Shown here: in pieces, positions 33,705 to 33,910 of the stretch | Position numbering within the stretch: position 1 is the stretch's first letter | Layout: the number at the start of each line of letters is the position of its first letter | NCBI GenBank assembly: GCA_017521465.1 | Contig: JAFXCN010000020.1 | Coordinates: 5,797 to 69,796, forward strand | Length of the DNA stretch: 64,000 nucleotides | Source: Clostridia bacterium | Lineage (GTDB): Bacteria; Bacillota; Clostridia; TANB77; UBA1234 | Reading direction: 5' to 3' | The notes under the pieces: generated by a model | The model's database searches: none | What the model saw: the letters and a program-made list of their open reading frames with translations, nothing else | What the model was told of the DNA's origin: nothing | Program-made: the position numbers and the translations under genes

Positions 33705-33910
33705 TACGGAACTTTCCGTCGGACACAAAAATTTCACCACGACACACTTTCTGTCGGACACAAAAATTTCACCATGACACACTTTCTGTCGGACACAAAA
33801 GTTTCATCACGACACACTTTCTGTCGGACACAAAAGTTTCACCATGACACACTTTCTGTCGGACACAAAAGTTTCATCACGACACACTTTACATCGGAGA
33901 CAAATTTTCC
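33705..33910. repeat. tandem array of about 5.5 copies of a 35-bp unit (GTCGGACACAAAA(A/G)TTTCA(C/T)CA(C/T)GACACACTTTCT)
   Basis: GTCGGA recurs at 33718, 33753, 33788, 33823 and 33858 (period 35). Same family as array 4924-5170 in opposite orientation. Confidence 0.9.

What the first reader, a model, noticed from the sequence alone, without database searches (positions are those of the whole stretch)
33705..33910. Second 35-bp tandem array of the same family in opposite orientation
Five to six copies of GTCGGACACAAAA(A/G)TTTCA(C/T)CA(C/T)GACACACTTTCT with exactly 35-bp phasing. The reverse complement aligns with the unit of the first array (AAAGTGTG.CG.TG..TGAA.TTTTTGTGTCCGAC). It lies between the VanW-lipoprotein start and a divergent gene, next to an AGTGAATAGTGAAAAG motif. 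Conservation of the unit length with sequence drift implies a length constraint consistent with protein binding or nucleosome-like phasing.
Basis: seen in the sequence. Interest (0 to 1): 0.55.

Follow-up and report, generated by a model that had tools for sequence, protein, structure and literature searches.

The report
Species-specific 35-bp intergenic repeat array
This is a real tandem array of a 35-base unit, one of four such arrays in this stretch of an uncultured gut Clostridia genome; its only conserved part is a 17-base palindrome that looks like a protein docking site, and it most resembles the ordinary "interspersed repeat" families known from other bacteria.

Summary
The array is real: 5.5 head-to-tail copies, period exactly 35 bp, at 33711-33904. 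It belongs to a family with four loci in the window: 4899-5176, 33705-33913, 38712-38851 and 58024-58163.

The "opposite orientation" claim is wrong for the array at 4932-5167. The two consensus units match 26/35 directly and 20/35 as reverse complement, because the unit is quasi-palindromic.

Only a 17-bp palindrome, TTTNNGTCSGACNNAAA, is conserved between loci (18 hits against 0.1 expected). It is spaced 35 bp centre to centre, 34 bp twice. The linkers differ from locus to locus.

Array B is a ~225-bp insertion. A sister species (Xer recombinase, a chromosome-dimer-resolving enzyme, 94% identical) and an outgroup both have clean empty sites. The family is absent from all relatives further away than that sister.

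Single units do not fold, nothing matches Rfam, and predicted curvature is nil.

Best reading: a lineage-restricted, non-coding interspersed repeat comparable to staphylococcal STAR or REP/BIME elements. It was amplified in place, and its palindrome is probably recognised by an unidentified dimeric DNA-binding protein.

The window also spans the replication terminus. A terminus-related role is possible but poorly supported. Interest is modest.

The parts
33705..33913 (+). Array B, the finding. It has five full 35-bp units (palindrome centres at 33721, 33756, 33791, 33826 and 33861), a degenerate unit centred at 33896, and a degenerate left edge.
33686..33705 (+). Heptad tract AATAGTGAATAGTGAAAAG adjoining array B. 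It is part of the insertion relative to the sister species.
   Evidence: Family-wide, AGTGAATAGTGAA (up to 2 mismatches) gives 23 hits against 3.6 expected.
33688..33912 (.). Approximate extent of the ~225-bp insertion (heptad tract plus array). It is absent from the orthologous VanW/119-aa spacer of sister species L180. In L180, ...CCTCAA joins directly to ATTTATAG...
   Evidence: boundaries read by eye from the printed sequences. Outgroup L184 has a 152-bp spacer with no units.
32938..33669 (-). VanW-domain lipoprotein gene. Its RBS and start lie 36 bp from the array's left edge.
   Evidence: Pfam VanW 8e-47. The identical protein is found in 10 contigs.
33913..33942 (-). Promoter-like hexamers TTGATT-18-TATAAA pointing through the array towards VanW. 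If this promoter is used, the reverse complement of array B forms a VanW 5' leader of roughly 235 nt.
   Evidence: Read from the sequence. The scan tool found an overlapping TTGATA-18-GAAAAT site. The CTATAAAT box is conserved in L180 next to the RBS. Use of this promoter is an inference.
33951..33979 (+). Promoter-like TTGTAT-17-TATAAT for the 118-aa gene. It is 100% conserved in L180 and lies 38 bp right of the array.
34018..34374 (+). Divergent 118-aa membrane-protein gene with no family match.
4899..5176 (+). Array A, same family and same orientation as B. It has 8 units, two of them 34 bp and the first degenerate. It lies between a ytfI-like gene, whose last codons and stop fall in the first unit, and ytfJ.
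   Evidence: Relatives have only 20-59 bp between these two genes.
38712..38851 (.). Array C, four units in mixed orientation. It exactly fills the gap between the -35 box of the Bax1-I gene promoter (minus strand, 38711-38706) and the -35 box of the Xer recombinase gene promoter (38846-38851). The two promoter-proximal units are conserved in sister species L180 with core GTCTGAC.
58024..58163 (.). Array D, four units in mixed orientation. It lies between an intrinsic terminator (58155-58180, minus strand) and the -35 box TTGACT (58031-58026) of the promoter for the pheST T-box leader.
   Evidence: It is identical in three assemblies.

Best explanation
Array B is one local array of a young, lineage-restricted, non-coding interspersed repeat family.

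- **Unit.** Each 35-bp unit is a 17-bp palindrome, TTTNNGTC(S)GACNNAAA, plus an 18-bp linker. The linker is free to vary between loci.
- **Origin (shown).** A unit, together with a heptad tract, was inserted into the short spacer between the VanW gene and its divergent neighbour after the split from the sister species.
- **Growth (inferred from variant patterns).** The array then grew in place by duplication of 35-bp and 70-bp blocks, through slipped-strand or unequal recombination.
- **Recognition (inferred).** The palindrome is the only part kept constant. It most likely acts in duplex DNA as a docking site for a dimeric DNA-binding protein. That protein could be the factor that seeds new copies or a host protein.
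- **Effect on neighbours (inferred).** Arrays survive where insertions are tolerated: just upstream of -35 boxes, after terminators, or in leaders. Effects on neighbouring genes are probably incidental, for example a VanW leader lengthened by about 225 nt.
For: - Four loci share the motif, with 35-bp spacing.
- Units are 91-100% alike within an array but only 57-74% alike between arrays, and linkers are locus-specific.
- Higher-order periods of 70 bp (B) and 104 bp (A), together with degenerate terminal units, point to amplification in place.
- Differences between loci avoid the 13 palindrome positions. The sister-species units keep the palindrome arms.
- Empty sites for B exist in the sister species (Xer 94% identical) and in an outgroup.
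- Array A is absent from the ytfI-ytfJ junction of relatives.
- Nine other loci from relatives carry no units: AspRS (aspartyl-tRNA synthetase) 86-95% identical, or Xer 69-90% identical.
- Single units have no stable hairpin: -1 to -4 kcal/mol, z from -1.0 to +0.1, and the predicted pairs differ between units.
- There is no Rfam match, no called gene across the array, and no similar DNA in plasmid, phage or viral collections.
- Staphylococcal STAR elements have the same overall anatomy and the same species-specific locations (PMC3532100).
Against: - No binding protein is identified.
- Only about 74 kb of this genome could be examined, so genome-wide abundance is unknown.
- The palindrome positions were defined from the same units used to test them.
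- Copy number is identical in every assembly seen, which is unexpected for a slippage-prone array. Short-read assemblies can collapse repeats, and two short-read (Logan) contigs break at the array.
- How a unit reaches a new locus is unknown. No target-site duplication or terminal inverted repeat could be defined at B.
- All four loci lie within 35 kb of the replication terminus, which a purely selfish model does not predict.
Confidence: 0.55

Rival explanations
1. Dedicated operator arrays. The palindromes are binding sites of a transcription factor, and the arrays were selected to regulate or insulate the promoters they touch (VanW and the 118-aa gene, Bax1-I and xer, the pheST T-box leader, ytfJ).
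For: - Arrays C and D run right up to the -35 boxes of three near-consensus promoters (positions read from the sequence).
- B lies between two divergent promoter-like sites.
- The core is palindromic and conserved.
- The two xer-proximal units are conserved in the sister species.
Against: - The flanking genes share no function.
- B and A are absent from close relatives whose genes and promoters are otherwise conserved.
- Xer orthologues at 90%, 73% and 69% identity have no units upstream.
- In compact genomes any tolerated insertion ends up next to a promoter.
- Four to eight sites per locus is far more than operators usually need.
Confidence: 0.15
2. Terminus-domain elements. The arrays are docking sites for a terminus-acting protein, in the manner of XerD-binding XDS sites that unload SMC complexes, matS/MatP, or Ter/RTP fork traps.
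For: - GC skew flips from +0.2 to -0.15, with the cumulative maximum at about 38-40 kb, and gene strand bias flips at the same place.
- A unique, conserved 11-6-11 candidate dif site lies at 36474-36501.
- The oldest array (C) abuts the xer promoter.
- Most units contain CACAAAA, the inner 7 nt of the candidate dif arms.
- A and B, both on the left replichore, have the same orientation.
- XerD-bound dif-like XDS sites are described in PMC11840125.
Against: - Similarity to the dif arm is only 7 nt of a common AT-rich word, and units lack the 11-6-11 layout.
- Array D, on the right replichore, has mixed rather than opposite orientation.
- B is missing in the sister species, and the terminus regions of two other relatives (21 kb each, containing xer and dif) have no arrays of any kind.
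- No sequence far from the terminus of this genome was available for comparison.
Confidence: 0.1
3. RNA-level element. Transcribed arrays form repeated structures that stabilise, attenuate or otherwise regulate mRNAs, as REP or BOX elements can, or they yield small RNAs.
For: - B probably lies in the VanW leader, and A lies just after a coding region.
- Whole arrays fold better than shuffles: z = -3.0, -3.4 and -2.0.
- A weak terminator-like hairpin sits at 33706-33719 on the minus strand.
Against: - The extra stability comes from pairing between neighbouring quasi-palindromic units.
- Single units do not fold.
- A would be transcribed in the sense orientation and B in antisense. C and D lie upstream of promoters or beyond a terminator.
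- There is no Rfam hit even at E = 1.
Confidence: 0.07
4. Neutral minisatellite with no recognition by any protein. Under this reading the conserved palindrome is an accident of recent common descent.
For: - The family is young and narrow in distribution.
- There is no conservation beyond the sister species.
- The test on palindrome positions is partly circular.
Against: - Zero of 6-18 between-locus differences fall in 13 of the 35 positions, in all 23 pairwise comparisons.
- The conserved positions form a perfectly symmetric pattern.
- Spacing is preserved across orientation flips.
- Independent sister-species units keep the arms.
Confidence: 0.08
5. Contingency (phase-variation) locus. Copy-number changes of the 35-bp unit switch expression of the VanW lipoprotein.
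For: The tandem repeat lies between promoter-like hexamers and the RBS of a surface lipoprotein gene.
Against: - The same five cores are present in every assembly from different samples and assemblers.
- Three other arrays of the family sit beside unrelated housekeeping genes.
Confidence: 0.04

Closest known systems
STAR (Staphylococcus aureus repeat) elements
   Same: Both are intergenic and non-coding. A short motif, relatively GC-rich for the genome, recurs as direct repeats at a fixed interval with locus-specific intervening sequence. Loci carry from 1 to about 7 motifs. Locations differ between closely related species, and function and spreading mechanism are unknown (PMC3532100).
   Different: The motif is unrelated (T(G/A/T)TGTTG(G/T)GGCCC(C/A) for STAR) and not palindromic. 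The STAR interval is at least 40 bp. STAR belongs to a different phylum-level lineage and varies in copy number between strains, which was not seen here.
REP/BIME elements, including GTAG- and CGTC-tagged REPs
   Same: Both are extragenic units of about 35 bp with dyad symmetry that occur clustered. Some units here begin CGTC or TGTC. CGTC REPs also lack a dedicated transposase (PMC3733652).
   Different: REPs form stable stems (8-9 bp with 4-5 nt loops for the CGTC type) and occur mostly as head-to-head dimers, with head-to-tail arrangement negligible. Here single units do not fold, arrays A and B are purely head-to-tail, and CGTC lies at the centre of the dyad rather than as an unpaired tag. 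CGTC REPs have not been reported in Firmicutes.
Centromere-like or iteron arrays such as sopC of plasmid F (12 direct 43-bp repeats, each with a short inverted repeat bound by SopB; recalled from memory)
   Same: Head-to-tail direct repeats of 35-43 bp, each carrying one palindromic protein-binding site.
   Different: Those are single arrays next to partition or replication genes on plasmids. Here there are four chromosomal loci with no par or rep genes beside them and no similarity to plasmid DNA.
dif and XerD-binding XDS sites of the replication terminus
   Same: Location near the terminus and next to a xer gene, dyad symmetry, and a shared CACAAAA word with the candidate dif arms (PMC11840125).
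   Different: Units lack the 11-6-11 recombination-site layout. The real dif candidate is a separate, unique site at 36474-36501. XDS sites are single sites, not arrays (recalled from memory).
CRISPR arrays
   Same: Regularly spaced short partially palindromic repeats.
   Different: There are no unique spacers, because the 18-bp linker is itself repeated within each array. No cas genes or leader were seen.

Membership tests
REP/BIME (CGTC-tagged REP super-family) | The unit folds into a stable stem-loop (stem 8-9 bp, loop 4-5 nt) with an unpaired CGTC/TGTC tag at one end and a short tail. | tested here: not met
   Five representative units folded as DNA give -1 to -4 kcal/mol, z from -1.0 to +0.1 against shuffles, with inconsistent pairs. 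CGTC sits at the dyad centre. Criteria are from PMC3733652.
REP/BIME (CGTC-tagged REP super-family) | Units are organised mainly as head-to-head (or tail-to-tail) dimers, and head-to-tail arrangement is negligible. | tested here: not met
   Arrays A and B are uniformly head-to-tail. Only C and D mix orientations.
REP/BIME (GTAG type) | Association with a RAYT (IS200/IS605-like tyrosine transposase) gene flanked by the repeats. | not tested
   No transposase domain appeared among the roughly 30 window proteins scanned, but not every ORF was scanned and the rest of the genome was not available.
STAR elements | Consensus motif T(G/A/T)TGTTG(G/T)GGCCC(C/A). | tested here: not met
   The motif here is TTTNNGTCSGACNNAAA. 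The STAR consensus is from PMC3532100.
STAR elements | Intergenic direct repeats of a short motif separated by recurring, locus-specific sequence, at loci that differ between related species. | tested here: met
   This shows it works like a STAR element, not that it is one.
CRISPR | Repeats are separated by unique spacers of similar length, with cas genes or a leader nearby. | tested here: not met
   Linkers are repeated within each array. No cas domains were found in the neighbouring genes scanned.
dif / Xer recombination site | Two inverted arms of about 11 bp separated by a 6-8 bp central region, one copy per chromosome at the skew switch. | tested here: not met
   The unit's dyad has a 1-bp centre. 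A separate unique 11-6-11 site at 36474-36501, conserved in four species, fits instead.
Known structured RNA families (Rfam 15) | A match to a covariance model. | tested here: not met
   No hit at E up to 1 on 33600-34050, on either strand.
Plasmid centromere or iteron arrays | A single array adjacent to partition or replication genes of a plasmid or other mobile element. | tested here: not met
   There are four chromosomal loci flanked by housekeeping genes. No plasmid or phage similarity was found.
Intrinsically curved / phased A-tract DNA | A-tracts repeat in phase with the helical turn, giving net curvature. | tested here: not met
   Wedge-model end-to-end/contour is 0.97-0.98 for A and B, against 0.39-0.42 for phased controls. 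The model parameters were recalled from memory.

The most novel reading that the evidence does not exclude
The arrays are docking platforms for a lineage-specific DNA-binding protein and act in organising the replication-terminus domain, for example as SMC-unloading or roadblock sites comparable to XDS or matS, built as multi-site arrays. Candidate binders are the Xer recombinase, whose promoter abuts the oldest array, and the rare three-HTH protein encoded 3 kb away at 41972-42769. This would be a terminus-organising system not described in Clostridia.
Probability: 0.07. Interest if true: 0.7.

Novelty: new member of a known kind. Interest (0 to 1): 0.3.

Why it matters
If the best reading holds, this adds an undescribed interspersed-repeat family from an uncultured ruminant-gut Clostridia lineage. 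The habitat is inferred from record names. The family has unusually clear evolutionary brackets: it is absent at 90% Xer identity, has two units at 94%, and four arrays here. It could therefore serve as a small natural case study of how such repeats are born, seeded and amplified.

In practical terms, the arrays break short-read assemblies and could serve as strain markers.

It would matter more only if the palindrome proved to recruit a terminus-acting or regulatory protein.

Tried and rejected
- **Public-collection scans.**
  - One scan of species-representative genomes for three cores at 35-bp spacing found only three unrelated actinomycete hits.
  - The metagenome scan and the first viral scan used a pattern that also allowed 36-bp spacing. 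These scans were poorly designed and say little about absence.
  - A stricter viral scan found nothing.
- **BLAST** of the array against plasmids and phages found nothing.
- **Literature** word search for the core sequence returned only primers.
- **Canonical Bacillus-type dif pattern** gave no match. A different dif candidate was found by eye.
- **Xer as a conserved partner.** Orthologues at 90%, 73% and 69% identity lack upstream units.
- **RNA and hairpin models** were rejected as above.
- **Curvature** was rejected.
- **Coding.** The 82-aa ORF at 33690-33938 across the array is not called as a gene in any assembly, and a 35-bp period cannot keep a reading frame.
- **Small proteins near the terminus** (37072-37419, 37454-37792, 34018-34374) were checked as possible binders. 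All are membrane or secreted proteins.
- **Co-occurrence of the three-HTH protein with arrays** could not be tested, because contig look-ups were exhausted.
- **Insertion signature at B.** No convincing target-site duplication or terminal inverted repeat could be defined.

Full report
**Observation**

The region 33705-33913 contains a clean tandem array. Tandem Repeats Finder reports 33711-33904, period 35, 5.5 copies, 91% matches, no indels, score 311. They differ at three transition sites, all in the linker, and a degenerate unit sits at each end.

The array lies between the start of a VanW-domain lipoprotein gene (32938-33669, minus strand) and a divergent 118-aa membrane-protein gene (34018-34374). 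The heptad tract AATAGTGAATAGTGAAAAG adjoins it on the left.

The same DNA, with the same five cores, occurs in at least five independent metagenome assemblies made with different assemblers. It is therefore not an assembly artefact. Two short-read (Logan) contigs break at the array.

**The family**

The window holds four loci of this family:

| Array | Coordinates | Units | Orientation |
|---|---|---|---|
| A | 4899-5176 | 8 (two of 34 bp) | all + |
| B | 33705-33913 | 5 full plus degenerate ends | all + |
| C | 38712-38851 | 4 | mixed |
| D | 58024-58163 | 4 | mixed |

- The core GTCSGACA occurs 29 times against 0.5 expected.
- When all units are put in one register, the conserved part is a symmetric 17-mer, TTTNNGTCSGACNNAAA. 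It gives 18 matches (up to 1 mismatch) against 0.10 expected, and every match lies in the four arrays.
- Palindrome centres are 35 bp apart at all loci, twice 34 bp in A. This holds even where neighbouring units are inverted.
- The 18-bp linkers are repeated within an array but differ between arrays. Unit identity is 91-100% within arrays and 57-74% between them.

**Orientation**

The consensus units of A and B match at 26/35 positions in the same orientation and 20/35 as reverse complement. The second value equals the unit's similarity to its own reverse complement. Shuffles give a mean of 14.7 and a maximum of 20. Both arrays carry GTCGGACA on the + strand.

**Genome context**

The window comes from a 31% GC spore-forming Clostridia known only from metagenomes.
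- ytfJ, scpA, T-box leaders and class A RNase P are present.
- The AspRS (aspartyl-tRNA synthetase) is 100% identical to one from a "MAG: Clostridia bacterium".
- Record names suggest ruminant gut (inference).

GC skew changes from about +0.2 to about -0.15, with the cumulative maximum near 38-40 kb. Gene orientation flips from + to - at the same place. The window therefore spans the replication terminus. All four arrays lie within 35 kb of it. The 10 kb beyond the right end of the window has none.

**Evolution**

A sister species (locus L180; AspRS 97% and Xer recombinase 94% identical) is syntenic around array B but has a clean empty site. The two promoters and the RBS align, and about 225 bp (heptad tract plus array) is missing. 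An outgroup (L184) has the same divergent gene pair with a 152-bp spacer and no units. B is therefore an insertion in the window's lineage.

At array A's position, relatives have only 20-59 bp between the ytfI-like gene and ytfJ. The window's ytfI-like protein ends early, inside the first unit.

Array C is older. Its two units next to the xer promoter are present in L180 with the central base changed (GTCTGAC). The palindrome arms are intact, and the changes fall in the N positions and the linker. Xer orthologues at 90%, 73% and 69% identity have no units upstream. No unit was found in nine other loci from relatives. The family is thus confined to the window species and its sister, and most of it is younger than their split.

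**Constraint**

In all 23 comparisons between units of different loci, none of the 6-18 differences falls on the 13 specified palindrome positions (P from 0.046 down to 1.6e-6 per pair). These positions were chosen from the same units, so the test is partly circular. Two observations are more independent:
- None of the 8 sites that vary within arrays is a palindrome position (P about 0.014).
- The sister-species units keep the arms.

Constant length is weaker evidence. Copying whole units preserves it automatically, 34-bp units exist, and few indels are expected at this divergence (inference).

**What it is not**

- Single units do not form stable hairpins.
- Whole arrays fold somewhat better than shuffles (z from -2.0 to -3.4), but only by pairing between neighbouring quasi-palindromic units.
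- There is no Rfam match at E up to 1.
- Promoter-like sites occur only at the array's right edge, none in its interior.
- No gene is called across the array.
- There are no unique spacers, so it is not CRISPR.
- A wedge-model calculation predicts a straight axis (0.97-0.98, against 0.39-0.42 for phased A-tract controls, parameters recalled from memory). This fits 35 bp being 3.33 helical turns.
- No similar DNA was found in plasmids, phages or viral contigs.

**Position relative to promoters**

These positions were read from the sequence.
- Array C exactly fills the space between the -35 box of a consensus minus-strand promoter for the Bax1-I gene (TTGACA-17-TATAAT) and the -35 box of the xer promoter (TTGCCT-17-TATCAT).
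- Array D runs from a terminator to the -35 box of TTGACT-17-TAATAT. The transcript predicted from that promoter starts where a sub-threshold T-box match begins (57787-57995, E = 4e-14), upstream of pheST.
- Array B was inserted between a conserved CTATAAAT box and the VanW RBS. If the TTGATT-18-TATAAA hexamers at 33942-33913 are the VanW promoter, the array is transcribed as its leader (inference).
- Array A ends 66 bp upstream of a forespore-type GCATA-17-CATACTA promoter for ytfJ (consensus recalled from memory).

Such positions are where insertions are tolerated, so they do not by themselves show a regulatory role.

**Mechanism**

I commit to the following reading: this is a young interspersed repeat family whose palindrome is recognised in duplex DNA by a dimeric protein, seeded rarely at new intergenic sites and amplified in place.
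- Shown: family membership, insertion at B, amplification in place, and stronger conservation of the palindrome.
- Inferred: protein binding, the seeding mechanism, and transcription of B.

Rival readings, in decreasing order of confidence, are listed with their evidence in the Rival explanations section:
- dedicated operator arrays;
- terminus-domain sites;
- a neutral satellite;
- an RNA element;
- phase variation.

The terminus idea is weakened by several results:
- Array D has mixed orientation.
- B is absent from the sister species.
- No arrays occur in 21-kb terminus regions of two other relatives.
- The resemblance to the candidate dif arms is only 7 nt.

**Comparison with known systems**

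The closest analogue is the staphylococcal STAR element. It is an intergenic, short, relatively GC-rich motif recurring at fixed intervals with locus-specific intervening sequence. It sits at species-specific loci and has no known function (PMC3532100). REP/BIME elements, including CGTC-tagged REPs, share size and dyad symmetry. They fail on stem-loop stability and on dimer organisation (PMC3733652). The array works like these families but is a member of none by sequence. I rate it a new member of a known kind, of modest interest.

Noticed in passing
window 36000-40000 (whole window for the trend): The window spans the replication terminus. GC skew flips from about +0.2 to about -0.15, with the cumulative maximum near 38-40 kb. 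Genes run on the + strand to the left of it and on the - strand to the right.
   Followed up: partly
window 36474-36501; L180 11835-11858; L184 1498-1521; L185 9269-9292: Candidate dif site with 11-6-11 layout: ATTGCACAAAA-TAATAG-TTTTGTGCGAA. It is unique in the window (0.01 expected) and conserved near xer or the terminus in four species. It differs from the Bacillus-type dif pattern, which gave no match.
   Followed up: partly
window 38855-38865: An exact copy of the candidate dif arm (TTTTGTGCAAA) lies in the spacer between the -35 and -10 boxes of the xer gene's own promoter. It is conserved in L180, and a similar half-site lies upstream of xer in L185. This suggests Xer may regulate its own gene.
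   Followed up: no
window 5182-5198, 10947-10966, 33686-33705, 46092-46117, 51348-51381, 57668-57756, 58519-58553: A second interspersed family: tracts of the heptad AGTGAAT/ATTCACT (23 hits against 3.6 expected) in intergenic regions. Some form long AT-rich inverted repeats, for example 57668-57756 and 5181-5236. The heptad resembles the WATCACW heptads bound by plasmid omega repressors (recalled from memory).
   Followed up: partly
window 45513-45660 (+), 52835-52980 (-), 61600-61745 (+), partial 57621-57660: A GC-rich repeat of about 115 nt in a 31% GC genome. It starts TAACGCAGTTCG and has two strong hairpins. One copy shows compensatory stem changes relative to the other two. There is no credible Rfam match. 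It could be a structured RNA or a miniature mobile element.
   Followed up: partly
window 41972-42769 (-): A 265-aa protein with three tandem small HTH modules, 45.7% GC, inserted between ackA and pta, which are adjacent genes in outgroup L184. Only 15 homologues exist among 5.8 billion proteins, and some have four modules. Matches are weak: GcrA and resolvase HTH domains, and a sub-threshold match to the CRISPR-repeat-binding protein Cbp1 (25.8 bits against a cut-off of 140). It is a speculative candidate binder for one of the repeat families.
   Followed up: partly
window 57787-57995 (-): A T-box leader below Rfam's gathering score (66 bits against 93, E = 4e-14) lies upstream of pheS/pheT. 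It has a consensus promoter and its own terminator. About 300 bp of repeat-rich DNA lies between this leader and pheS.
   Followed up: partly
window 58500-59250: A 50-53% GC island carries a 167-aa membrane-protein ORF (58612-59115, minus strand) with no family match. It lies 350 bp from array D.
   Followed up: no
window 36100-37070; L185 9100-9990: An AT-rich non-coding stretch of about 1 kb lies at the convergence point. It contains a motif AAAATCGATT(C/T)TAG..C.T..TCGTGCGT (window about 36952-36985) that recurs twice in the equivalent region of a distant relative. Seen by eye only.
   Followed up: no
window 4450-4923: The ytfI-like gene ends inside the first degenerate unit of array A. Its product lacks the basic C-terminal tail of 10-30 residues found in two relatives, so the insertion probably trimmed the gene.
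   Followed up: partly
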